Virus record (IMG/VR): IMGVR_UViG_2778261153_000009
Location: 1-41,300 of that record
Length of the DNA stretch: 41,300 bases
DNA from: a virus
Taxonomy: Duplodnaviria; Heunggongvirae; Uroviricota; Caudoviricetes
Strand: one strand, 5' to 3'
Shown: piece after piece, positions 3,996 through 38,341 of the stretch
Position numbering within the stretch: position 1 is the first letter of the stretch
Layout of the letters: each line of letters opens with the position of its first letter
The notes under the pieces: model-generated
Databases searched by the model: none
Seen by the model: only the letters and a program-made list of their open reading frames with translations
What the model was told of the DNA's origin: nothing
Program-made: the position numbers and the translations under genes

Positions 3996-5225
3996 TTAGG
4001 CTACCAGAGCATTTGATCTTTGAGCTTGAACGTAATCACTCCACCATTGCATCAAACTCTGTCGCTCTATCAGATATTCTGCACGATTGTATGCTGCGAT
4101 AATTTCATCTTTTTTCGAGTGGGCAAGCGCTGCCTCAAGAACTTCAGCTCTGAATTTACCAGACTCCTCTGCCGCTGTTCGTGCAATAGAACGCATACCG
4201 TGAGCTACAAGCTCGCCTCCGAACCCCATTCGGATGATAGCTGCGTTGGCTGTTTGTTCATGCATATGATTAAGAGGCGCTTTTATGCTGGGGAAAACCC
4301 ATTCTCTATGCCCACTTATTGATTTCATTAATTCAAGGATGCGCAAAGCTTCTTTACTCAAAGGAACTTTGTGAAGCTTTTTCATTTTCATGAAATCAGC
4401 AGGAATGTTCCAAATGCTGTTGGTTGTATCAATATCAGACCACCTTGCGCGAACGGCTTCACCCGGACGAACCCATGTCAACAATTGCCATTCAATTAGC
4501 ATACGTGTTTCCAACCGGATTGACGCATTCGTCAAAGATTCCATAAACCTTGGCAATTCGCTTGGGGGAAGGGCAGGCATATTTTGCTTTTTTGGTTTAC
4601 TGAATCTTTGACCAAGGTTGTCAGCCGGGTTGAACTCAATAAGTTCTTCAGTAGCTGCCCACCGGAAGATTTCATTCAGACGTGAAATGATACGGCGTAG
4701 AGTTTCCAATACGCCTCGTTGCTCAATAGGATCAAGGTGTTGTTTTAAGAGCTTAGGTCGGATCTCATTGATAGGGACATTACCCAGACCGGGAAAGACA
4801 TTTCTCTCTAAGCTGCGCCAGATGTCTGCTGCATGGTCTTGTGAGATACCTGATGTCTTTACCTTCTCATCTAACCATTTCCGCGCTACGGCTTGGAGAG
4901 TGTGCTCAGTAGCACTCTTTAATGCCTTCGCCTTATCGTTGTTATGGATTTGGGGATCAACACCATTTGCCAGAAAGGAGAGATATTCATCACGTAAGGC
5001 TCTGGCTCTTGCAAGGGTAAGGTGAGGATATGTCCCAAGGCTCATTTTGGTTCTTTTCTTGCTCACTGGTACTGCATACCTGAAATACCAATTTTTCTTG
5101 CCTCCTTTCGCCAAAGGAGCGATTCGTAGAATCAGACCATCACCGTCAAACAAGTTGATTTCTTTATCGGCTGGCTTGGTGCTTTTGATTTCAGTGTCAG
5201 TGAGCTTCTTAGCGATTTTTGCCAT
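3996..5225 (-). CDS. int: Tyrosine integrase, P4 family (IntA-like)
   Basis: N-terminus MAKIAKKLTDTEIK...LFDGDGLILRI, C-terminal SLMQWWSDY typical of P4-type integrases; start moved to Met15 of the ORF by analogy with IntA. Confidence 0.85.
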   Translation of the reverse strand: MAKIAKKLTDTEIKSTKPADKEINLFDGDGLILRIAPLAKGGKKNWYFRYAVPVSKKRTKMSLGTYPHLTLARARALRDEYLSFLANGVDPQIHNNDKAKALKSATEHTLQAVARKWLDEKVKTSGISQDHAADIWRSLERNVFPGLGNVPINEIRPKLLKQHLDPIEQRGVLETLRRIISRLNEIFRWAATEELIEFNPADNLGQRFSKPKKQNMPALPPSELPRFMESLTNASIRLETRMLIEWQLLTWVRPGEAVRARWSDIDTTNSIWNIPADFMKMKKLHKVPLSKEALRILELMKSISGHREWVFPSIKAPLNHMHEQTANAAIIRMGFGGELVAHGMRSIARTAAEESGKFRAEVLEAALAHSKKDEIIAAYNRAEYLIERQSLMQWWSDYVQAQRSNALVA

Positions 5226-7043: not shown

Positions 7044-7067
7044 AAAGCCACTTAAGTGGCTTTTTTT
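7044..7067 (+). terminator. Rho-independent terminator (hairpin AAAGCCAC-TTAA-GTGGCTTT + T-run)
   Basis: Perfect stem followed by TTTTTTT between convergent genes; overlaps int stop codon. Confidence 0.5.
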
Positions 7068-8224
7068 GTGATATTGCTGGTCGTATTACCGTCATATTCC
7101 TTTAAATATGAACCATAATGACGAAATAACATTTCCGGCCCTTTATGCCCCATTTGAGCTGCAAGCCAAAACAGGTTTGCTCCCCGGCTGATATGGCGGG
7201 TGGCGAATGTATGCCTAGTTTGATATGGATTTCTGTAACGAATACCTGCTTTTCGCAATGTTGGCACCCATGCTTTTTTCCTGATTGCATCAGCACTTGC
7301 CCAAGGCTTATTGGTCTTTGGATCTTCAAAGACAGTAGTATCCTTCATGAATGTAAATGGCTTCTGATTTATCAGCGCCAACATTGCCTCTTCTGTCAGT
7401 TCAACTTTCCGAGTACCTGCTTTTGTCTTTGTCCCTTTGATAACACCGACAACACTTGCGCTCTGGACATGGGCAGTTTTTCCAACAAAGTCGATATCAC
7501 GCCATCGAAGGGCACATAATTCAGAACTACGCAGGCCTGTATGTATAGCGAACCGGAACAGATTTTCCCATTGTTTGTTTCCGGCTGCTGCTAGTAATGC
7601 ATCAACTTCTGCTGGTGATAGCGGATCAACTACGTAGCTGCTTTCTGCTTCTGACTTATCACTTTGGTAGCGCGAAGCTGTTACTAACGATACGGGGTTA
7701 ATTTGAAGTACCCCATCGGTCACGGCTTCATCAAGTGCTGACCGCAGGAAAGATAACTGGTTGCGAATTGTTTTTAAGGTCGTTTTCTGATTTTGAATCC
7801 ACGCTTTCAGGGTTGCTGGTGTTAATTCACTTGCAGGGCAAATGTGAAGTGAGGCTAACGCACTACGGCATTTTTTATAGCCACCAATCGTAGAGGGTGA
7901 AAGTTTTCTTGTTTCGCAGATTTCAAGATATTCGTCCAGGTACATCTTTACCGTTTTGCCTGCAGCAGCATTACCAAAAATTTTCAAACGAGCAGAACGG
8001 GGAAAATATTCTGCATAAATGAATGTTCCCCTTTCGATCTTATTATGGATTTCGCCGAGTGTACGCTCGGCGTATTTAATGTTCTTTGGTGTTACTTCCA
8101 GATTGGAAAGCGGCTCACGACATCTAACTCCTTTGTAGGTGAAAGTTATATTGATCGTTTCTCCCTGGCGGTGTTTCCTGATTGTTACGCCGCGCGGTAG
8201 TTTGAGCAGTTTTGTCTGGCCCAT
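7052..8224 (-). CDS. int: Phage tyrosine integrase (lambdoid)
   Basis: C-terminal RHTFATRHISRGANLFWLAAQMGHKGPEMLFRHYGSY catalytic region; N-terminal arm-binding-like domain. Confidence 0.85.
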   Translation of the reverse strand: MGQTKLLKLPRGVTIRKHRQGETINITFTYKGVRCREPLSNLEVTPKNIKYAERTLGEIHNKIERGTFIYAEYFPRSARLKIFGNAAAGKTVKMYLDEYLEICETRKLSPSTIGGYKKCRSALASLHICPASELTPATLKAWIQNQKTTLKTIRNQLSFLRSALDEAVTDGVLQINPVSLVTASRYQSDKSEAESSYVVDPLSPAEVDALLAAAGNKQWENLFRFAIHTGLRSSELCALRWRDIDFVGKTAHVQSASVVGVIKGTKTKAGTRKVELTEEAMLALINQKPFTFMKDTTVFEDPKTNKPWASADAIRKKAWVPTLRKAGIRYRNPYQTRHTFATRHISRGANLFWLAAQMGHKGPEMLFRHYGSYLKEYDGNTTSNITKKAT

Positions 8225-11313: not shown

Positions 11314-11781
11314 TTTGCTGCTCCTCATCATATCGACCCTGCAAGGTCGGTTAGTTTCTCCACAAAACAGAGAAGAACACCTGCGGTGACTGCCGCCCGG
11401 ATGGATTGGGTTATGAGCCCGTCGTCCGGTGATGCTCTTCTCTGTTTTGTAAAAAGGACGGTACCAGCCGGAAGCAAGGGTACAAGCTGGTACCGCCAGG
11501 ACTACACACAGCATAAAGTTGTGGTGCCGGGTGCCTCCCGGTGCCTGGCGAAGGTTGCACACCAGGCGGGTGGGTATCCACAGAAGGTCGACTGTCAGCC
11601 TCAACCTTAACCCGCGTGCGCTGAGCCGCATTCACCACAACGCTAAGGATTCTCTCTGGTTGAAAATACTTAGCTGTTATGTGCCTGCTTTTAGCCACAT
11701 CAGGCGAGGTGGACCTGGTTATTCCCCAACAACAAGGATTCGGTTAATCTGGTTATCCCCAACAACGCAAAAGGAAAAGAA
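11314..11781. promoter_or_regulatory. GC-rich structured non-coding region between divergent genes (leader/regulatory or ncRNA)
   Basis: 15-bp perfect inverted repeat 11362..11376 / 11436..11450; 9-bp inverted repeat 11460..11468 / 11486..11494; two direct repeats CTGGTTATYCCCAACAAC at 11715..11733 and 11749..11766. Confidence 0.35.
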
Positions 11782-19679: not shown

Positions 19680-20564
19680 TTATATTGGGCGCTTTGAATT
19701 CGATTTAAAGCGTCTTCCACTTATCCCTGAAATCCAAATGTCTTCCTCAAGAAAGTCAAGAAGGGCTTTTATTTCTTTTTTTGATGAAGGCATGACAATT
19801 TTCTCAACACCGCCAACTATTATGGTTTGTAAGGGGAAATTGACTTTAGCAGCTTCGGATTTAAACTTTGACATATTTTGGGGTGTTAGCATCCCAGTCT
19901 GATTTATTAGTGTTACTTTATTTCTTATCACTGTATCTGCAACGGATTTTAGATCAAAACCTTGGGGAGTAGAAAATACACTAAGTTGACTAAATGCATT
20001 AAGTTCTTGGTCAGTAGCAGCAGAAAAATAGGACGACATGTCAAAAATGCTTCTTAGATTAAAGAAACTCTTAAATCGTATTGTATCATTGATAATTATT
20101 GCAACTAGTTTATCATCAACATTAAAACCGATGCTATTAGCTTTACTAAAGGTAGTTTTGCTTGCAAAAAGCTTTCCAAAGAATGATTTTGAGGTATCTA
20201 AGATTTGTTTTTTGTTGAAGGTTTGTAGCGCAATAATATTGGGGTTTGCTGGCGCGTCAACACCAACAAATAATGCTTTAATATAACCAATATCAATTTG
20301 GCTGGGATCCCAGACAGGCACGGCGGTAGGCCTATTGACTGCGTCAATCAGGCGTGCAGAATCAGTAAAGTTTTGTATTTCAAAACACTCACTATGTTTT
20401 GGTGTATAACCGGCATAGAATGGTATCATATTGTTATGATGACTTTCAAAATATTGACGCTGTTGTTGGAAAATGGCCGTAACAGAAGTACTTGCTGTTG
20501 CATCAAGTTCGACTCTAACAATTCTCGTTGCAATTGTATTATCTATTACTGCAAAAAGTGCCAT
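19680..20564 (-). CDS. Hypothetical soluble protein (AT-rich cargo, partner of membrane protein)
   Basis: 294 aa, 5 nt downstream of the membrane gene on the same strand; no family recognised. Confidence 0.55.
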   Translation of the reverse strand: MALFAVIDNTIATRIVRVELDATASTSVTAIFQQQRQYFESHHNNMIPFYAGYTPKHSECFEIQNFTDSARLIDAVNRPTAVPVWDPSQIDIGYIKALFVGVDAPANPNIIALQTFNKKQILDTSKSFFGKLFASKTTFSKANSIGFNVDDKLVAIIINDTIRFKSFFNLRSIFDMSSYFSAATDQELNAFSQLSVFSTPQGFDLKSVADTVIRNKVTLINQTGMLTPQNMSKFKSEAAKVNFPLQTIIVGGVEKIVMPSSKKEIKALLDFLEEDIWISGISGRRFKSNSKRPI

Positions 20565-20569
20565 GGTTA

Positions 20570-21091
20570 TTATCCTTTAACATGTAGAAATGTGTAGTCT
20601 GTTAATTGAATAACTGTAAATTTGATATCTTTAATATCAGTAATGACTGATTTAGAAATCAATACAAAACCTACGCCGGTGTCATCTTCAGCTTCGTAAA
20701 ATTTATAACCGATAAGTGACAATACTGGGTTAAAGTTATAGTTCTCGGAAAAGCTGATGTAAAATAACAATGACAAATAAAAGAATAACGCATATGCTTT
20801 ATTTTCAGCAATAGAGTCTGTTCCTAGGAGAGGGAATAAATAGCTTAAGAAATAATTAGTTACTTCTTTGTTAGCGGGAGAAACTGAACTAATATTTTTT
20901 GTCAGAGGTTCAAGTTGTTTCTCAGCATATTGAATCAGGCCTATTGCTAATAACCAACTTGCTATGCCAACGCATAAGCTATATTGCATCAGCCAAACCG
21001 TATCTTTTACATATCCAATAAAAAATAGAGTTGCGCAAACAGGTGCAATTGAGCTTGCTGTTAATAATAAGCGTGCTAATTTGTTCATCAT
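20570..21091 (-). CDS. Membrane protein, ~4 TM helices (AT-rich cargo)
   Basis: 173 aa with four hydrophobic segments; SD AAAGGA. Confidence 0.55.
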   Translation of the reverse strand: MMNKLARLLLTASSIAPVCATLFFIGYVKDTVWLMQYSLCVGIASWLLAIGLIQYAEKQLEPLTKNISSVSPANKEVTNYFLSYLFPLLGTDSIAENKAYALFFYLSLLFYISFSENYNFNPVLSLIGYKFYEAEDDTGVGFVLISKSVITDIKDIKFTVIQLTDYTFLHVKG

Positions 21092-31623: not shown

Positions 31624-31794
31624 ATGTTTGTCAAACCTGTTAAAGGGCGGTCAGTTCCTGACCCTGCCCGCGGCGACCTTTTGCCCGCCGAAGGGCGAAA
31701 TGTTGACGAGAACAACTACTGGCTGCGCCGTGAAGCCGCGGGTGATATCCGGCGCGTGAATAAAAAGGTGAATACCGATGACGATAAGCTTTAA
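31624..31794 (+). CDS. Small protein preceding tail sheath (not in supplied ORF track)
   Basis: 56-codon ORF MFVKPVKGRSVPDPARGDLL... ending TAA at 31792..31794, overlapping the sheath start. Confidence 0.35.
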   Translation: MFVKPVKGRSVPDPARGDLLPAEGRNVDENNYWLRREAAGDIRRVNKKVNTDDDKL

Positions 31795-33274
31795 CACCAT
31801 TCCGTCGAATACGCTGGTTCCGTTGTTTTATGCGGAAATGGATAACTCGGCGGCGAATACTGCACAGGACAGCGGAGCATCGCTGCTGATTGGTCATGCC
31901 AATAACGGTGCAGAGATTGTTGCCAACAGTCTGGTGCTGATGCCATCGGCAGACTATGCACGCCAGATTTGTGGTGCGGGAAGTCAGCTGGCGCGTATGG
32001 TCGAGGCTTATCGCCAGACCGACCCGTTTGGTGAACTGTATGTGATTGCCGTTCCTGAATCCACGGGCGCGGCGGCAACAGTTACGCTGACGGTGACCGG
32101 CGCGGCAACCGAAACCGGCACGGTGAATGTTTATGTGGGACGTACCCGCGTGCAGGCACCGGTGACCAACGGCGATAACGTCGCGACGATTGCCAGCAGT
32201 ATCAAAGATGCCATCAATGCCGTTCCGGCCCTGCCGTTTACGGCCTCATCTTCGGCTGGCGTGGTCACACTGACCGCGCGTCATAAGGGGCTTTGCGGGA
32301 ATGAAACTCCTGTCAGCCTCAATTACTACGGCTTCGGTGGGGGCGAAGTGCTGCCAGCGGGCGTACAGATTGCCGTGGCGGCGGGGACCGCCGGAACGGG
32401 CGCTCCGGTTCTCACCGGCGCGGTGGCTGCAATGGCGGATGAGCCGTTTGATTATATCGGTCTGCCGTTCAACGACACGGCCTCCCTTAACACGCTGGTG
32501 ACCGAGATGAACGATACCAGCGGTCGCTGGAGCTATGCGCGTCAGCTGTATGGCCATGTGTATACGGCAAAGATCGGCACGCTGTCAGAACTGGTGACCG
32601 CAGGTGACCAGTTTAACCAGCAGCACATTACCCTGGCGGGGTACGAAAAAGACACCCAGACGCCTGCCGATGAGCTGGCGGCAAGCCGTACCGCCCGCGC
32701 AGCGGTGTTTATCCGCAACGATCCGGCACGTCCCACGCAGACCGGTGAGCTGGTGGGTATGCTGCCTGCGCCGAAGGGGAAACGGTTCACGATGACCGAA
32801 CAACAGACCCTGCTGTCTCATGGCGTGGCAACGGCGTATGTCGAAAGCGGGGTACTGCGCATTCAGCGTGATGTCACCACGTACAGGAAAAACGCTTACG
32901 GGGTTGCGGATAACAGCTACCTCGACAGCGAGACGTTGCATACCAGCGCGTATGTACTGCGCAAACTGAAATCCGTCATTACCAGTAAGTACGGGCGTCA
33001 CAAGCTTGCCAGTGACGGTACCCGCTTTGGTCCCGGTCAGGCGATTGTCACCCCGGCAGTGATCAAAGGGGAACTGCTGGCAACCTACCGTCAGCTCGAG
33101 CGTGCGGGGATCGTGGAAAACTACGAACTGTTCAAGCAGTACCTGGTTGTTGAGCGTGATGCCAGCGATCCGAACCGCCTGAACACGCTGTTCCCGCCTG
33201 ACTATGTTAACCAGTTGCGTGTCTTTGCCGTGGTTAACCAGTTCCGTCTTCAGTATTCAGAGGAGTCTGCATAA
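31778..33274 (+). CDS. Tail sheath protein (contractile tail)
   Basis: 498 aa, sheath-like sequence followed by tube gene. Confidence 0.8.
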   Translation: MTISFNTIPSNTLVPLFYAEMDNSAANTAQDSGASLLIGHANNGAEIVANSLVLMPSADYARQICGAGSQLARMVEAYRQTDPFGELYVIAVPESTGAAATVTLTVTGAATETGTVNVYVGRTRVQAPVTNGDNVATIASSIKDAINAVPALPFTASSSAGVVTLTARHKGLCGNETPVSLNYYGFGGGEVLPAGVQIAVAAGTAGTGAPVLTGAVAAMADEPFDYIGLPFNDTASLNTLVTEMNDTSGRWSYARQLYGHVYTAKIGTLSELVTAGDQFNQQHITLAGYEKDTQTPADELAASRTARAAVFIRNDPARPTQTGELVGMLPAPKGKRFTMTEQQTLLSHGVATAYVESGVLRIQRDVTTYRKNAYGVADNSYLDSETLHTSAYVLRKLKSVITSKYGRHKLASDGTRFGPGQAIVTPAVIKGELLATYRQLERAGIVENYELFKQYLVVERDASDPNRLNTLFPPDYVNQLRVFAVVNQFRLQYSEESA

Positions 33275-33630
33275 TGGCCCGTATCGGGGGAACCTGTTAT
33301 TTCAAAATTGACGGTCAGCAGCTATCGCTGACCGGCGGCATTGAGGTGCCCATGAACAGGACGGTCAATGATGACATCATCGGCCTGGACGGTTCAGTGG
33401 ACCGCAAGGAAACTCACCGTGCGCCCTATGTTAAAGGGACCTTCAAGGTGCCGAAGAATTTTCCTGTGAGCAAAATCACCTCGTCTGATGAGATGACCAT
33501 CACTGCTGAGCTGGCGAACGGTCAGGTCTATGTATTGTCGTCAGCCTGGCTGCACGGCGAAGCGAACCATAATGCCGAAGAAGGCACGGTTGATCTTGAG
33601 TTCCACGGTGAAGAAGGGGATTACCAGTAA
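33274..33630 (+). CDS. Tail tube protein
   Basis: 118 aa directly after sheath. Confidence 0.75.
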   Translation: MARIGGTCYFKIDGQQLSLTGGIEVPMNRTVNDDIIGLDGSVDRKETHRAPYVKGTFKVPKNFPVSKITSSDEMTITAELANGQVYVLSSAWLHGEANHNAEEGTVDLEFHGEEGDYQ

Positions 33631-33899
33631 TGAAAGAGCTTGAGTTAAAGAAACCGATTATCGCTCATGGCGAGACACTCTCCGTACTGGAGTTTGATGA
33701 ACCCACCGGGAAGGATGTCCGCGAGCTGGGGTATCCCTACCAGATGAATCAGGATGAGTCCGTCAGACTTCTGGCGCATGTGGTGTCGAAATACATTGTG
33801 CGGCTGGCGAAAGTGCCGCAAAGCTCTGTCGACCAGATGTCTCCGGCAGACCTGAATGCAGCGGCGTGGCTTGTGGCTGGTTTTTTCCTCCAGGCCTGA
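33630..33899 (+). CDS. Tail assembly chaperone (short form)
   Basis: 89-aa ORF before the tape measure gene, ending just after a slippery heptamer. Confidence 0.65.
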   Translation: MKELELKKPIIAHGETLSVLEFDEPTGKDVRELGYPYQMNQDESVRLLAHVVSKYIVRLAKVPQSSVDQMSPADLNAAAWLVAGFFLQA

Positions 33900-34048
33900 C
33901 GGCTGAATACCTCACTGATCGCTTCTTTGACTGCGCCAGTTACTGGCGCATTAATCCCTTCGAATTGCTGAATATGCCGATCAGTGAAATTCCCTTGCTG
34001 GTCAGTCAGGCAAACAGGATAGAGCAGGAGAAACGCACACATGGCTGA
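33630..34048 (+). CDS. Tail assembly chaperone, frameshift-extended form (-1 shift at 33881..33887)
   Basis: Frame 0 to frame -1 junction gives ...AGFF/PPGLTAEYL... ending at 34048, overlapping the tape measure start. Confidence 0.5.
33881..33887 (+). promoter_or_regulatory. Slippery heptamer TTTTTTC for -1 programmed ribosomal frameshift
   Basis: X XXY YYZ heptamer in the zero frame (ggT TTT TTC) 12 nt before the short-form stop; the -1 frame stays open to 34048. Confidence 0.55.
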
Positions 34049-35876
34049 ATTTGAGCTTAAGGCGTTGATCACCGGTGTCGACAGGCTTTCTCCGGCGCTG
34101 TCGAAAATGCAAAAGAAAATCCGGGGATTTAAACGCCAGGCGGAAGAAGCGTCACAGGGTGGGCTGGCGCTTGGTGGCGGACTGGCAGCGGGTCTGACGC
34201 TTTCCCTGAAATCTTATGCCGATCAGGAAAACGCCGCCACCGGGCTGAAAGTCGCCATGATGGATGCGAACGGCGAGGTTGGAAAGCGCTTTCAGGACAT
34301 CAATAAACTGGCTATTGGCCTGGGTAACCAGCTACCCGGTACAACGGCTGATTTCCAGAACATGATGCAGATGCTGGTGCGTCAGGGGATCCCGGCAGAA
34401 AACATTCTGGGTGGTGTGGGTAAAGCGACAGCTTATCTTGCGGTACAACTGAAAAAAACACCAGAAGCGGCTGCTGAGTTTGCTGCAAAGATGCAGGATG
34501 CTACCGGAACGGCGTCAGAAGACATGATGGGGCTGTTCGACACTATCCAGAAGGCGTTTTATCTGGGCGTTGACGATACCAACATGTTGTCCTTCTTCAC
34601 TAAAACCAGTTCTGTTCTGAAGATGGTGAATAAGGACGGTCTTCAGGCTGCACAGAGCCTTGCCCCTATCAGCGTCATGATGGATCAGATGGGGATGAAC
34701 GGGGAGTCGGCAGGTAATGCCCTGCGAAAAGTTATCCAGTCCGGATTAAGCGTTAAGAAAATCAGGGACGTCAATAAAGTCATGGCCCGCCAGAAACTCG
34801 GAGTGCAGCTCGATTTTACTGACGGCAAAGGGAGTTTTGGCGGTCTTGATAACATGTTCAGGCAACTGGCAAAGCTGCGAAAACTGACCGACGTTAAGCG
34901 AACCGGTGTACTTAAGGCAATATTTGGTGATGATGCTGAAACCCTTCAGGTGGTCAATGCTCTGATCGATAAAGGAAAGGATGGTTACGATCAGATCCAG
35001 CAGAAGATGAATAAACAGGCCAGCCTGAATAAACGTGTTCAGGCCCAGCTTGGTACGCTGTCCAACCTGTGGGAGGCAATGACGGGGACCGCAACTAACG
35101 GCCTTGCGGCTATTGGCGGCGCATTTTCTGGTGACGCCAAAAATATCACGCAATGGCTGGGGGAGTTAGGGGAAAAATTCACGAAGTTTGCGGATGAAAA
35201 TCCCCGGGTTATTCGCGGCGTCGTCGGGCTTGCTGCCGGTCTTGCGATTCTGAAACTGGGATTGATGGGCGTTGGCGGTGCCATCAGTATTGTCAGCAGG
35301 ATCATGTCGATGACGCCGATAGGAATGATTGCGACGGCGATAGCCCTGGCTGCGGGATTAATTATCACTAACTGGGATGTTGTCGGACCTTATTTCAAGA
35401 AGCTCTGGGAAACCATTGGTCCTTATTTTGAGGCTGGCCGGGAACTTCTGAAGAAGGTTTTTGCCTGGTCGCCGCTGGGGATGGTAATCAATAACTGGGG
35501 ACCGGTTGTTAAGTGGTTTCAGGATATGTGGGATAAGCTGAAGCCGATTATTGAATGGTTTACCGACAGTTCCGGTGACACGGTTGATGCCATTAACTCG
35601 GCGCAGTGGGGCGCGGGTGCTTATGATGCTTATGGGACGGGAATACCGGCACGGGGATACACACCTTATCCGGCGGTAGATCCGGCTCAGTCAAACAACG
35701 CCTCCGATGCCACAGGCCCGAATCCCTTCATGATTAACAAAGCTTCTGCGCCAAAAGTTGATGGTGAGATCAAGGTCTCTTTTGTGAATTCGCCTCCGGG
35801 TATGCGGGTTATGGAAACGCGATCCAGCGGTTTTGATGTCAGCCATGATGTTGGCTATACGCGCTTTGGCAGGTAA
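34041..35876 (+). CDS. Tail tape measure protein
   Basis: 611 aa, Ala/Gly-rich with hydrophobic segments; SD AGGAG. Confidence 0.85.
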   Translation: MAEFELKALITGVDRLSPALSKMQKKIRGFKRQAEEASQGGLALGGGLAAGLTLSLKSYADQENAATGLKVAMMDANGEVGKRFQDINKLAIGLGNQLPGTTADFQNMMQMLVRQGIPAENILGGVGKATAYLAVQLKKTPEAAAEFAAKMQDATGTASEDMMGLFDTIQKAFYLGVDDTNMLSFFTKTSSVLKMVNKDGLQAAQSLAPISVMMDQMGMNGESAGNALRKVIQSGLSVKKIRDVNKVMARQKLGVQLDFTDGKGSFGGLDNMFRQLAKLRKLTDVKRTGVLKAIFGDDAETLQVVNALIDKGKDGYDQIQQKMNKQASLNKRVQAQLGTLSNLWEAMTGTATNGLAAIGGAFSGDAKNITQWLGELGEKFTKFADENPRVIRGVVGLAAGLAILKLGLMGVGGAISIVSRIMSMTPIGMIATAIALAAGLIITNWDVVGPYFKKLWETIGPYFEAGRELLKKVFAWSPLGMVINNWGPVVKWFQDMWDKLKPIIEWFTDSSGDTVDAINSAQWGAGAYDAYGTGIPARGYTPYPAVDPAQSNNASDATGPNPFMINKASAPKVDGEIKVSFVNSPPGMRVMETRSSGFDVSHDVGYTRFGR

Positions 35877-35936
35877 TGAAAAATTAATCTGTTAATGAGT
35901 CCCACTCCGGTGGGATTTTTTATGTACGGAGTTTAT

Positions 35937-37265
35937 ATGACGTGGAAAGACAGACTTCAGGACGCGTCATTTCGCGGTGTGCCGTTTAAGGTTGAAGAAG
36001 AAAGTGCGGGAACCGGTCGCCGTGTGGAAACGCACGAATACCCGAACCGCGACAAACCCTATACCGAAGACCTGGGGAAAATCACTTTCCGCCCGTCCAT
36101 CGCAGCTTATGTGGTGGGAGATGACTGCTTTGACCAGCGCGATCGCCTGATTGACGCGCTGAATAAACCCGGTCCCGGCACGCTTGTCCATCCGACTTAC
36201 GGTGAGCTGAAAGTCTGTGTTGACGGGGAAGTTCGGGTCAGCACATCGAAGAGTGAAGGGCGTATTGTCCGCTTTGACCTGAAGTTTGTCGAAGCGGGAG
36301 AACTCTCTTACCCCTCTTCAGGTGCGGCGACGGCGCAGACGCTGATGTCATCCTGTTCTGCACTGGATGACTGCATCAGTGACAGCTTCAGTGGTTTCAG
36401 TATCGATGGCGTGGCAGATTTTGTGCAGAACGACGTCGTCGGTAATGCCAGCACAATGCTTGGGTATGTTTCTGATGCAATGAAAGTGGTGGATTCTGCC
36501 GTATCGGATGCCGCCAGGCTGTTGCAGGGGGATATCTCGGTACTTCTGCCGCCGCCATCGTCAGGCAAAAATTTCGTTGAGCAGGTGCAGAAAATGTGGC
36601 GTACCGGGAAACGCCTTTATGGTAACGCCAGCGACCTGGTCACCATGATCAAAACGCTTTCCGGTGTCAGCCTCGGCAGCGATCTGCAACCGCGCGGCGT
36701 CTGGAAAACGGACAGTAAAACCACCGCCACGGCGACGCAACAGCGTAACGTGGTTGCCAGCACCCTTCGTACGACCGCAATCAGCGAAGCGGCGTATGCC
36801 GTCACCCGATTGCCTGCGCCAACAACTTCCGCGGTGATGCAGAATGCCGCAGTGGGGCAGGCAACAACACCCGCGCAGAGCACTGGCTGGCCTTCCGTCA
36901 CGCATCCGGCACTGAACAATGCACCAGCGGTGAAAAGCACGGTTGACCTGCCGACGTGGGAAGAACTGACTGACATTCGTGACACACTGAATACGGCAAT
37001 TGATAAGGAGTTGTCCCGAACAACCAGTGATGCGCTGTTTCTGGCACTGCGCCGGGTGAAAGCAGATCTGAATGCGGATATCAACACGCGCCTTGAACAG
37101 TCTGCACGGATCATTCAGCGCACGCCGGATGAGGTCTTACCCGCGCTGGTGCTGGCGGCGACCTGGTTTGATAACGCGGCGCGTGACGCGGACATTATCC
37201 GGCGTAATGCCATTACGCATCCCGGCTTTGTGCCGGTGATCCCTCTGAAGGTGCCAGTGCAATGA
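35937..37265 (+). CDS. DNA circularisation protein (Mu N-like)
   Basis: N-terminus MTWKDRLQDASFRGVPFKVEEESAGTGRRVETHEYPNRDKPYTEDLG as I recall the Mu N family. Confidence 0.7.
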   Translation: MTWKDRLQDASFRGVPFKVEEESAGTGRRVETHEYPNRDKPYTEDLGKITFRPSIAAYVVGDDCFDQRDRLIDALNKPGPGTLVHPTYGELKVCVDGEVRVSTSKSEGRIVRFDLKFVEAGELSYPSSGAATAQTLMSSCSALDDCISDSFSGFSIDGVADFVQNDVVGNASTMLGYVSDAMKVVDSAVSDAARLLQGDISVLLPPPSSGKNFVEQVQKMWRTGKRLYGNASDLVTMIKTLSGVSLGSDLQPRGVWKTDSKTTATATQQRNVVASTLRTTAISEAAYAVTRLPAPTTSAVMQNAAVGQATTPAQSTGWPSVTHPALNNAPAVKSTVDLPTWEELTDIRDTLNTAIDKELSRTTSDALFLALRRVKADLNADINTRLEQSARIIQRTPDEVLPALVLAATWFDNAARDADIIRRNAITHPGFVPVIPLKVPVQ

Positions 37266-38341
37266 ACGATAACGTCACGCTACGGGTAAATGGCCGGGAG
37301 TGGAATGGCTGGACATCGGTGCGCATCGGTGCCGGTATTGAACGGCTGGCGCGGGATTTCAGCGTGGAGATCACCCGCCAGTGGCCGGGAGATGAGGGTA
37401 TCACCACGCTTCAGCCGCGCATTAAAAATGGTTCAAAAGTGGAAGTGCTGATTGGTGATGAGCTGGTGATCACCGGCTGGGTGGAGGCGACCCCCGTTCG
37501 TTACGATGCCCGTTCGGTCAGCACCGGTATTGCCGGACGCAGTCTGACTGCTGACCTGATTGACTGTGCAGCCGAACCGACACAGTTTAACGGACGATCG
37601 CTGGTACAGATTGCGCAGGCGCTTGCTGCGCCTTTCGGCATTGAGGTGGTGAACAGCGATGCGCCGTCGGGTGTTATTCCGGATGTCCAGCCTGATCACG
37701 GTGAAACGGTGATCGAGGTGATCAACAAAATACTCGGTCAGCAGCAGGCGCTGGCTTATGACGACCCGCACGGCAGGCTGGTGATTGGTGGTATTGGCTC
37801 AACGCGGGCACATACCGCGCTGGTACTTGGGGAAAACATCCTTTCCTGTGATACGGAGAAGAGTATCCGGGAGCGGTTTTCAGTTTACCAGGTGGCGGGG
37901 CAGCGTGCTGGAAACGACGATGATTTCGGTGAGGCCACCACCACCGCGCTGCGGGCCCGCACAGAGGACGCATTTATTGCCCGTTACCGTCCGATGTATA
38001 TCAGGCAGACAGGGCAGGCTACGGGGGCAGGCTGTATTGCCCGTGCGGACTTTGAAGCCCGACAACGGGCGGCGCGGACGGATGAAACCACCTATGTGGT
38101 GCAGGGCTGGCGACAGGGTAACGGTACGCTGTGGCAGCCCAACCAGCGGGTGATTGTCTTTGATCCGGTCTGTGGTTTCGACAATACCGAACTGCTTGTT
38201 TCGGAAGTCACGTTTACTCAGGACCAGAACGGCACCCTGACGGAAATCCGTGTCGGCCCGCCTGATGCTTATCTGCCTGAACCTGAAGACCCCGGCGCGC
38301 GGAAAAAGAAAAAAGCCAGAGTACAGGAGGACCCGTTCTGA
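37262..38341 (+). CDS. Baseplate hub protein (Mu P-like)
   Basis: 359 aa in conserved Mu-like baseplate order. Confidence 0.7.
   Translation: MNDNVTLRVNGREWNGWTSVRIGAGIERLARDFSVEITRQWPGDEGITTLQPRIKNGSKVEVLIGDELVITGWVEATPVRYDARSVSTGIAGRSLTADLIDCAAEPTQFNGRSLVQIAQALAAPFGIEVVNSDAPSGVIPDVQPDHGETVIEVINKILGQQQALAYDDPHGRLVIGGIGSTRAHTALVLGENILSCDTEKSIRERFSVYQVAGQRAGNDDDFGEATTTALRARTEDAFIARYRPMYIRQTGQATGAGCIARADFEARQRAARTDETTYVVQGWRQGNGTLWQPNQRVIVFDPVCGFDNTELLVSEVTFTQDQNGTLTEIRVGPPDAYLPEPEDPGARKKKKARVQEDPF

What the first reader, a model, noticed from the sequence alone, without database searches (positions are those of the whole stretch)
33866..34048. Canonical -1 programmed frameshift in the tail assembly chaperone
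The zero-frame codons ggT TTT TTC form an X XXY YYZ heptamer (33881..33887) 12 nt before the short-form stop, and the -1 frame continues for 54 codons to overlap the tape measure start. This is the conserved G/GT-type arrangement, here in a Mu-like contractile tail module.
Basis: partly seen in the sequence, partly recalled or inferred. Interest (0 to 1): 0.4.

Follow-up and report, generated by a model that had tools for sequence, protein, structure and literature searches.

The report
Tail chaperone −1 frameshift, SfV-like prophage
This is the ordinary, well-known "slippery sequence" that lets a phage make a short and a long version of its tail-assembly chaperone from one gene; it is real and strongly conserved, but not new.

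Summary
An 89-codon gene (33630..33899, Pfam PF10109 tail assembly chaperone) lies between the tail tube and tape measure genes of an SfV-like E. coli prophage. It carries the in-frame heptamer T TTT TTC (33881..33887) three codons before its stop. From the heptamer the −1 frame runs 53 sense codons to a stop (34046..34048) that overlaps the tape measure ATG (34041) by 8 nt. A −1 slip would give a 139-aa G-T fusion.

A T6[C/T/G] heptamer sits at the same codons in every relative examined but one, down to 34-44% protein identity. The −1 ORF always reaches the tape measure start and evolves as coding sequence. It has no conserved start codon and no Shine-Dalgarno.

The annotated −1 site of phage P2 E/E+E′ (GGT TTT TTG) lies at the homologous position of the same Pfam domain. 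Phage Mu itself differs: a different chaperone family and no such heptamer, and the literature reports a −2 shift.

No stimulatory RNA structure is present here (z≈0). No public record inspected annotates the fusion in this phage group.

Verdict: a genuine, canonical programmed −1 frameshift of a known kind; low novelty. Product, efficiency and ribosomal versus transcriptional origin are untested.

The parts
33630..33899 (+). G-type tail assembly chaperone, short form (89 aa, 9.9 kDa)
   Evidence: ORF. PF10109 Phage_TAC_7, E=2.4e-15, 56.7 bits against a cut-off of 25, residues 4-86. phrog_166 'tail protein'. PGAP calls it 'phage tail assembly protein'. Size.
33881..33887 (+). Slippery heptamer T TTT TTC (zero-frame codons GGT TTT TTC)
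   Evidence: Invariant as T6C or T6T in 105 related loci, 42 of them distinct. T6C/T6G in Pseudomonas and Bordetella phages. Homologous to the annotated P2 site GGT TTT TTG.
33887..34048 (+). T segment: -1 frame, 53 sense codons plus stop, read only after the slip
   Evidence: phrog_32181 (unknown function), E=4e-40. tblastn matches in a second frame in phages down to 39-44% identity. Substitutions by codon position 3rd>1st>2nd = 1017:581:349. No conserved start or SD.
33630..34048 (+). Predicted G-T fusion product (139 aa, 15.8 kDa; join 33630..33887 + 33887..34048)
   Evidence: Fusions from 7 phages align colinearly across the junction; FF is invariant and T-domain residues A103, W106, P110, A128, R130 and I131 are invariant.
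34041..35876 (+). Tape measure protein gene; its ATG overlaps the T stop (ATGGCTGA)
   Evidence: PF10145 PhageMin_Tail, E=5e-27. The overlap geometry is conserved in relatives and in P2 (E+E' ends at 858, T starts at 851 in L109).
33274..33630 (+). Tail tube protein gene (upstream neighbour; presumed partner of the T domain)
   Evidence: PF10618 Tail_tube, E=2.4e-33. The partner role is inferred from lambda (PMC5009743).
31778..33274 (+). Tail sheath gene (context: contractile tail)
   Evidence: PF04984, PF17482 and PF17481.

Best explanation
This is a programmed -1 ribosomal frameshift in the tail assembly chaperone gene of an SfV-like (Mu-type tail, HK97-type head) E. coli prophage.

Proposed mechanism:
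- Most ribosomes translate 33630..33899 and release the 89-aa G protein.
- A minority pause with tRNA-Phe on UUU (P site) and UUC (A site) of G GUU UUU UC.
- Both tRNAs re-pair one base back, on UUU UUU.
- Translation resumes at CCU (33887) and adds 53 residues, giving a 139-aa G-T fusion that ends at the tape measure start codon.

By analogy with lambda G/GT and P2 E/E+E', the shared G domain coats the tape measure protein. The T domain of the rare fusion recruits the tube protein, and neither protein stays in the virion.

Shown here: the sequence anatomy, the conservation, the coding signature of the -1 frame, the lack of an independent start, and homology of the site to the P2 site. Inferred: that the slip occurs, its efficiency, that it is ribosomal, and the roles of the two domains.
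For: Anatomy.

Family and position: PF10109, lying between PF10618 (tube) and PF10145 (tape measure).

The heptamer and the -1 ORF reaching the tape measure start are conserved in these relatives:
- SfV, SfII, SfI, EPP-1, AH07, SfIV, ST64B, phiP27 and BgVeeders33;
- 18 genome loci from Enterobacterales, Burkholderia and Pseudogulbenkiania;
- Pseudomonas and Bordetella phages;
- 105 loci, 42 distinct, with no variation in T6 while flanking synonymous sites vary.

The zero-frame stop moves (9, 27-33 or 63 nt after the heptamer), but the heptamer does not.

The T frame shows purifying selection, and 13 of the 23 distinct sequences outside the close SfV-type group have no ATG/GTG/TTG at all upstream of the heptamer in that frame; none has an SD.

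P2 E+E' is annotated as a -1 frameshift. Its site GGT TTT TTG sits at the same end of PF10109, with the same 8-nt overlap onto the tape measure gene. PMC3091744 cites the experimental P2 work.

In E. coli, UUN A-site codons and all-pyrimidine heptamers are among the frameshift-prone motifs; the tetramer order is A_AAG > U_UUY (PMC4066793).
Against: No protein evidence exists for this phage group.

No stimulator was found. The 60 nt after the heptamer fold no better than shuffles (z=0.07), and there is no SD-like element upstream. In reporter assays, heptamers without a stimulator gave only 2-10 times a ~0.05% background (PMC4066793). The efficiency here may therefore be low, or an unrecognised stimulator may exist.

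The slippery site is a homopolymer, so RNA polymerase slippage would give the identical protein and cannot be excluded from sequence alone.

One distant relative (Paraburkholderia phage IPK, an UNVERIFIED record) has GGC TTC TTC at the site.
Confidence: 0.88

Rival explanations
1. Transcriptional slippage. RNA polymerase inserts one extra U while copying the T6 run, so a fraction of mRNAs encode G-T in a single frame. The protein would be identical to the -1 ribosomal product (…GFFPPGL…).
For: The site is a homopolymer (T6, or T7 in the ST64B group) in every relative. One-base insertions at exactly this spot occur in three public assemblies (T7 or an extra G), and they create the 139-aa ORF. 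This shows the run is indel-prone at the DNA or sequencing level.
Against: Documented bacterial cases use runs of about 9 A or T (PMC5009743); six is short. The run keeps the X XXY YYZ register and the seventh base stays a pyrimidine (or G in the P2 type), as expected for tRNA re-pairing. Analogous phage sites such as lambda G GGA AAG are not homopolymers (own knowledge; Levin et al. 1993, cited).
Confidence: 0.06
2. Independent small gene. The 60-codon ORF 33866..34048 is translated on its own from GTG 33866, as some records annotate it ('hypothetical protein').
For: ON470584 annotates it as a separate CDS. The 60-aa ORF is deposited as 'hypothetical protein' and seen on about 1000 contigs.
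Against: There is no SD within 4-14 nt upstream of the GTG. The start codon is absent in most diverged relatives, while the protein conservation begins exactly at the heptamer. The fusion is colinear with P2 E+E'.
Confidence: 0.03
3. No recoding. The 141-nt stretch between the chaperone stop and the tape measure start is non-coding spacer, and the heptamer is a by-product of the conserved G-F-F peptide.
For: PGAP and RefSeq leave the stretch unannotated. The F-F dipeptide is invariant at protein level.
Against: The stretch is conserved as protein in the -1 frame across genera (tblastn second-frame matches), with the 3rd>1st>2nd substitution pattern. It matches a phage protein family, phrog_32181, at E=4e-40. 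The third position of the codon before the T run is always T (GGT, or CGT/AAT/AGT/GAT where the residue differs), even though GGT makes up only 32% of Gly codons locally.
Confidence: 0.03

Closest known systems
Phage P2 E / E+E' (programmed -1 frameshift at T TTT TTG in the FETUD tail operon; Christie et al. 2002, cited in PMC3091744)
   Same: Both have a contractile tail. Both chaperone ORFs match PF10109 over model positions 2-78. The slippery site GGT TTT TTN sits at the same end of the domain (…VAGFF here, …VVGFL in P2). Product sizes are similar: about 90 aa and about 140 aa. The -1 ORF stop overlaps the tape measure start by 8 nt in both. Neither has downstream structure (z≈0 for both; PMC3091744).
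   Different: The seventh base is C (Phe UUC in the A site) rather than G (Leu UUG). The T part does not match PF06528 (Phage_P2_GpE), whereas P2 E' does; it belongs to phrog_32181. Overall similarity of the fusions is marginal (BLASTP E=0.65; hhalign E=0.02, probability 2%). The surrounding tail genes are Mu-type, not P2-type.
Phage lambda G / G-T (-1 frameshift at G GGA AAG; Levin et al. 1993; Xu, Hendrix & Duda 2004, 2013, 2014)
   Same: The genes sit in the same place, between the major tail (tube) gene and the tape measure gene. Both have a short and a long product sharing an N-terminus, no independent start for T, and no required stimulator. The mechanistic model used here comes from lambda: G binds the tape measure protein, T binds the tube protein, the G:G-T ratio is about 30:1, and neither is in the virion (PMC5009743).
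   Different: There is no detectable sequence similarity. Lambda has a non-contractile tail and a different heptamer.
Phage Mu gp41 and its downstream ORF (-2 frameshift; Xu et al. 2004; PMC5009743)
   Same: The flanking genes are homologous: sheath L, tube M, gp38/DUF2635, DNA circulation N, baseplate P/gp44. The chaperone occupies the same position.
   Different: Mu gp41 is 144 aa and belongs to PF23746; its PF10109 score is sub-threshold (24.7 against 25). It has no in-frame X XXY YYZ. Its -1 frame ends 107 nt before the tape measure gene, while the +1/-2 frame reaches within 15 nt of it. The literature assigns it a -2 shift.

Membership tests
G/GT-type tail assembly chaperone frameshift (Xu, Hendrix & Duda 2004) | Two overlapping ORFs located between the major tail/tube gene and the tape measure gene | tested here: met
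   Tube 33274..33630 (PF10618), G 33630..33899, T frame to 34048, tape measure 34041..35876 (PF10145).
G/GT-type tail assembly chaperone frameshift (Xu, Hendrix & Duda 2004) | Slippery X XXY YYZ heptamer in the zero frame within the ORF overlap | tested here: met
   T TTT TTC at 33881..33887, inside the 33758..33899 overlap.
G/GT-type tail assembly chaperone frameshift (Xu, Hendrix & Duda 2004) | The downstream ORF lacks its own translation start | tested here: met
   Only a GTG without an SD lies 15 nt upstream here. No start codon at all in 13 of the 23 distinct sequences outside the close SfV-type group.
G/GT-type tail assembly chaperone frameshift (Xu, Hendrix & Duda 2004) | The arrangement is conserved among relatives | tested here: met
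   One exception: the UNVERIFIED phage IPK record.
G/GT-type tail assembly chaperone frameshift (Xu, Hendrix & Duda 2004) | Two proteins with a common N-terminus are made in a fixed ratio; both are needed for tail assembly and absent from virions | not testable with these tools
   Needs proteomics or genetics. Predicted masses are 9.9 and 15.8 kDa.
P2 E/E+E' family | The upstream ORF belongs to PF10109 (Phage_TAC_7) | tested here: met
   56.7 bits against a cut-off of 25. P2 E scores 47.8 bits.
P2 E/E+E' family | T6N slippery site at the C-terminal end of the PF10109 domain (GGT TTT TTN) | tested here: met
   Window GGT TTT TTC; P2 GGT TTT TTG.
P2 E/E+E' family | The frameshift extension belongs to PF06528 (Phage_P2_GpE) | tested here: not met
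   No Pfam hit for the T part at E<=0.1, whereas P2 E' hits PF06528 at 2e-22. The T part is phrog_32181. Only weak colinear similarity was seen.
Mu gp41 -2 frameshift | The chaperone belongs to PF23746 (Gp41_Mu) | tested here: not met
   The window protein hits only PF10109. Mu gp41 hits PF23746 at 9e-35.
Mu gp41 -2 frameshift | The extension is encoded in the +1/-2 frame | tested here: not met
   The +1 frame closes 7 nt after the G stop, while the -1 frame runs 149 nt.

The most novel reading that the evidence does not exclude
The shift may reach a biologically useful level (P2-like, about 10%) even though no canonical stimulator lies at the usual distance. That would imply an unrecognised enhancer. 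Candidates are:
- the 8-bp hairpin at 33932..33950, 45 nt downstream, which is conserved in all 12 SfV-like relatives aligned;
- the conserved nascent peptide …WLVAGFF;
- a contribution from RNA polymerase slippage on the T6 run.

Beta-proteobacterial relatives, by contrast, appear to have acquired a classical stem-loop 5-9 nt downstream.
Probability: 0.1. Interest if true: 0.4.

Novelty: already known. Interest (0 to 1): 0.12.

Why it matters
The main value is for annotation. This prophage type is in about 20% of complete E. coli genomes (1,089 of 5,426). None of the RefSeq, GenBank or PGAP records inspected carries the joined CDS. They leave a 141-nt gap, or call the −1 ORF a 60-aa 'hypothetical protein', and PHROGs lists the T domain as 'unknown function'. 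Recognising the site assigns a function to that orphan ORF.

It also shows that a Mu-type tail module can carry a P2-type (−1, T6N) chaperone recoding site rather than Mu's −2 site, which illustrates mosaicism. It does not open a new biological question.

Tried and rejected
- **Downstream stimulator:** a 103-nt fold gave z=−3.75. That signal comes from structure starting at least 24 nt after the heptamer. The first 60 nt give z=0.07. The alignment consensus keeps only a 3-bp hairpin near the site plus the distal 8-bp hairpin. I rejected it as a classical stimulator.
- **Upstream SD-like stimulator:** none found.
- **+1/−2 shift as in Mu:** the +1 frame closes after 7 nt.
- **Independent start for T:** rejected.
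- **Genome-contig scan with the 7-sequence alignment:** It was repeated with 4 sequences. One of the search patterns then contained …VAGFF, so those 18 loci are biased towards the peptide, though not towards the codons.
- **IMG/VR scan:** returned only 98-100% identical copies.
- **Searches that found nothing informative:** NCBIfam had no model for G, T or the fusion. The PDB sequence search gave nothing meaningful. Rfam gave nothing in the whole window, and there are no tRNAs.
- **Similarity to P2 E+E′:** direct comparison of the fusions is not significant on its own. The homology claim rests on the shared Pfam domain and the site position.
- **Primary papers:** Xu et al. 2004 and Christie et al. 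2002 are not held in the library. I could not check whether SfV is explicitly listed there, so their content is cited through PMC5009743, PMC3091744 and PMC2628397 and from my own knowledge.
- **Structure prediction:** not attempted.

Full report
**1. What is in the sequence**

The window is an E. coli chromosome segment carrying an SfV-like prophage. It differs at 43 of 41,300 positions from NZ_CP051219 1228417..1269716. The region 33274..34300 is 98-99% identical to phages SfV, SfII, SfI and vB_EcoM-689R6. It occurs in 1,089 of 5,426 complete E. coli genomes.

The late operon on the + strand reads:

| Coordinates | Gene | Pfam match |
|---|---|---|
| 31778..33274 | sheath | PF04984, PF17482, PF17481 |
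| 33274..33630 | tube | PF10618 |
| 33630..33899 | 89-codon ORF | PF10109 Phage_TAC_7, 56.7 bits (cut-off 25) |
| 34041..35876 | tape measure | PF10145 |
| 35895..37265 | DNA circulation | PF07157 |
| 37262..38341 | Mu gp44/P-like hub | several GpP domains |

The chaperone ORF ends GCT GGT TTT TTC CTC CAG GCC TGA. The heptamer T TTT TTC is at 33881..33887, in X XXY YYZ register. The stop is at 33897..33899.

The −1 frame is open from 33758 to 34048. Re-reading from 33887 gives 53 sense codons (PPGLTAEYLTDRFFDCASYWRINPFELLNMPISEIPLLVSQANRIEQEKRTHG). Its stop lies inside ATGGCTGA, overlapping the tape measure ATG at 34041 by 8 nt. The +1 frame closes 7 nt after the G stop.

The one quibble is that the heptamer is separated from the stop codon by 9 nt, and by 12 nt only if counted to the end of the stop.

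**2. Is it more than chance?**

- In-frame XXXYYYZ heptamers are found at 0.36% of codon positions in proxy genes of the window (45 of 12,515).
- Five of 57 plus-strand proxy genes have one in their last 30 codons. Only this one is followed by a long −1 ORF (53 codons; the runner-up has 30).

The stronger argument is conservation.

- A tblastn search with the conceptual fusion, which does not select for the motif, found phages whose DNA matches the whole fusion in two pieces on one strand. These go down to 39-44% identity: SfIV, ST64B, phiP27 and Burkholderia phage BgVeeders33.
- Each of these has T TTT TTC or T TTT TTT at the same codons, and a −1 ORF that ends at or overlaps the tape measure start. 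Meanwhile the zero-frame stop wanders, lying 9, 30 or 63 nt after the heptamer.
- Eighteen loci from one-genome-per-species contigs behave the same way. They come from Shigella, Edwardsiella, Buttiauxella, Scandinavium, Citrobacter, Kluyvera, Erwinia, Pantoea, Kosakonia, Burkholderia and Pseudogulbenkiania. One caveat: one of the search patterns contained …VAGFF.
- Across 105 loci (42 distinct 207-nt segments) the T6 run never varies. The Ala codon just before it takes all four synonymous forms, and the Gly codon is always GGT. Local codon usage would give the heptamer for a G-F-F peptide only about 19% of the time.
- More remote phages whose T part no longer matches still have agT TTT TTC (Pseudomonas DVM-2008), C CCT TTT TTG (Pseudomonas PG1) or gaT TTT TTG (Bordetella), each with a −1 ORF reaching the tape measure gene.

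**3. Is the −1 segment a coding sequence, and is it read through a shift?**

- In a gap-free alignment of 12 SfV-like relatives, pairwise differences downstream of the G stop fall 1017: 581: 349 on codon positions 3: 1: 2 of the −1 frame. This is the signature of a translated frame.
- The segment matches phrog_32181 at E=4e-40, a family of unknown function.
- Conceptual fusions from seven phages align colinearly through the junction, with invariant FF and invariant T-domain residues.
- In the window the only start codon in the −1 frame upstream of the heptamer is GTG 33866, and it has no Shine-Dalgarno. In 13 of the 23 distinct sequences outside the close SfV-type group there is no ATG, GTG or TTG there at all.

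Independent initiation is therefore very unlikely.

**4. Mechanism**

With UUU in the P site and UUC in the A site, both tRNA-Phe can re-pair on UUU UUU after a one-base backward slip. Decoding then continues at CCU.

In E. coli reporter work, UUN and AAN A-site codons are the most shift-prone, and all-pyrimidine or all-purine motifs do best. The tetramer hierarchy is A_AAG > U_UUY (PMC4066793).

I found no stimulator.

- The 60 nt after the heptamer fold no better than shuffles (z=0.07). The same holds for P2 (z=−0.01) and for enterobacterial relatives.
- No SD-like sequence lies upstream.
- The alignment consensus keeps only a trivial 3-bp hairpin near the site.

This matches what is reported for P2 and most phage G/GT sites (PMC3091744).

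The functional model is taken from lambda (PMC5009743) and is inference here. In that model, many G molecules and few G-T molecules bind the tape measure protein, the T domain recruits the tube protein, and both chaperones leave before the tail is finished.

**5. Comparison with known systems**

The closest system is P2 E/E+E′. RefSeq annotates it as a joined CDS with a 'site of −1 translational frameshift'.

- P2 E matches PF10109 over the same model positions as the window protein.
- Its site is GTC GGT TTT TTG, at the same end of the domain.
- Its −1 ORF also overlaps the tape measure start by 8 nt.
- The extensions differ. P2 E′ is PF06528, while the window's T part has no Pfam match. Fusion-to-fusion similarity is marginal.

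Mu, although it is the source of the 'Mu-like tail' label, is not the model for the recoding.

- Its gp41 belongs to PF23746 and has no in-frame heptamer.
- Its −1 frame stops 107 nt short of the tape measure gene, while the +1/−2 frame nearly reaches it.
- Reviews state that Mu uses a −2 shift (PMC5009743; PMC2628397).

**6. Rivals**

- **Transcriptional slippage** on the T6 run would yield the very same protein. I cannot exclude it from sequence. Documented bacterial cases use runs of about nine, so I give it about 6%.
- **Independent translation of the 60-codon ORF**, and **'no recoding, just spacer'**, are each contradicted by the conservation data. I give each about 3%.

**7. State of annotation and novelty**

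None of the records inspected joins the two ORFs in this phage group.

- PGAP and RefSeq leave 33900..34040 empty.
- ON470584 calls the −1 ORF a hypothetical protein.
- The 60-aa ORF is deposited as 'hypothetical protein' and seen on about 1000 contigs.

The kind of element is textbook knowledge, and a homologous site has been verified experimentally in P2. I could not read Xu et al. 2004 to see whether SfV is listed there. I rate the finding as already known and of low interest. It is useful mainly as an annotation correction.

**8. Verdict**

- Confidence that a programmed −1 shift produces a G-T fusion here is about 0.88.
- Still untested: the product itself, its efficiency, and whether the slip is ribosomal or transcriptional.

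Noticed in passing
L114 1731-1780, L115 1731-1780, L116 1731-1780 (homologous to window 33860..33905): The exact 139-aa G-T fusion is an ordinary uninterrupted ORF in three public assemblies, because of a 1-nt insertion at the slippery site. UGDR01000001 has T7; its neighbouring sheath and tape measure genes are also fragmented, which suggests homopolymer sequencing errors. JNMU01000013 and a 3.7x-coverage metagenome contig have an extra G (GGG TTT TTT). These are either sequencing artefacts or 'fusion-only' prophage variants.
   Followed up: partly
window 33932..33950 (+): An 8-bp GC-rich hairpin, UGCGCCAG-UUA-CUGGCGCA, lies 45 nt downstream of the heptamer inside the codons for C-A-S-Y-W-R-I. 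It is kept in all 12 SfV-like relatives aligned. The only invariant degenerate third positions in the whole T region are GCC (stem) and TAC (loop). It is too far away for a classical -1 stimulator, and its function, if any, is unknown.
   Followed up: partly
L009 1256-1315, L105 1756-1815, L108 1753-1812: Beta-proteobacterial relatives have a strong stem-loop starting 5-9 nt after the same heptamer (-27 to -32 kcal/mol; z -2.7 to -3.9). These are Burkholderia phage BgVeeders33, a B. lata prophage and a Pseudogulbenkiania prophage. The enterobacterial members and P2 have none (z about 0). This may be a lineage-specific frameshift stimulator.
   Followed up: partly
L110 1240-1300 (Paraburkholderia phage IPK, UNVERIFIED record): This homologous chaperone has GGC TTC TTC (no slippery heptamer) at the conserved site. 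The T-like -1 ORF opens only 10 nt before the zero-frame stop. Either the shift site or mode is different, or the record contains an error.
   Followed up: no
window 19680..21091 (-): A KwaB-like (Kiwa anti-phage) gene, 19680..20564, and an adjacent hypothetical gene, 20570..21091, sit on the opposite strand between the Q antiterminator and the holin. This looks like a prophage-borne defence 'moron'. (Annotation of the near-identical E. coli SFE8 record.)
   Followed up: no
window 3996..5225 (-) and 7052..8224 (-); 11328..11638 (-): Two integrase genes lie near the left end, suggesting tandem or nested mobile elements. The near-identical RefSeq record also annotates a 'frameshifted' pseudogene at 11328..11638.
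   Followed up: no
window 35895..37265 (+): The DNA circulation gene has a longer possible ORF (ATG 35895, 456 aa) than the PGAP call (start 35937). The start site is ambiguous.
   Followed up: no
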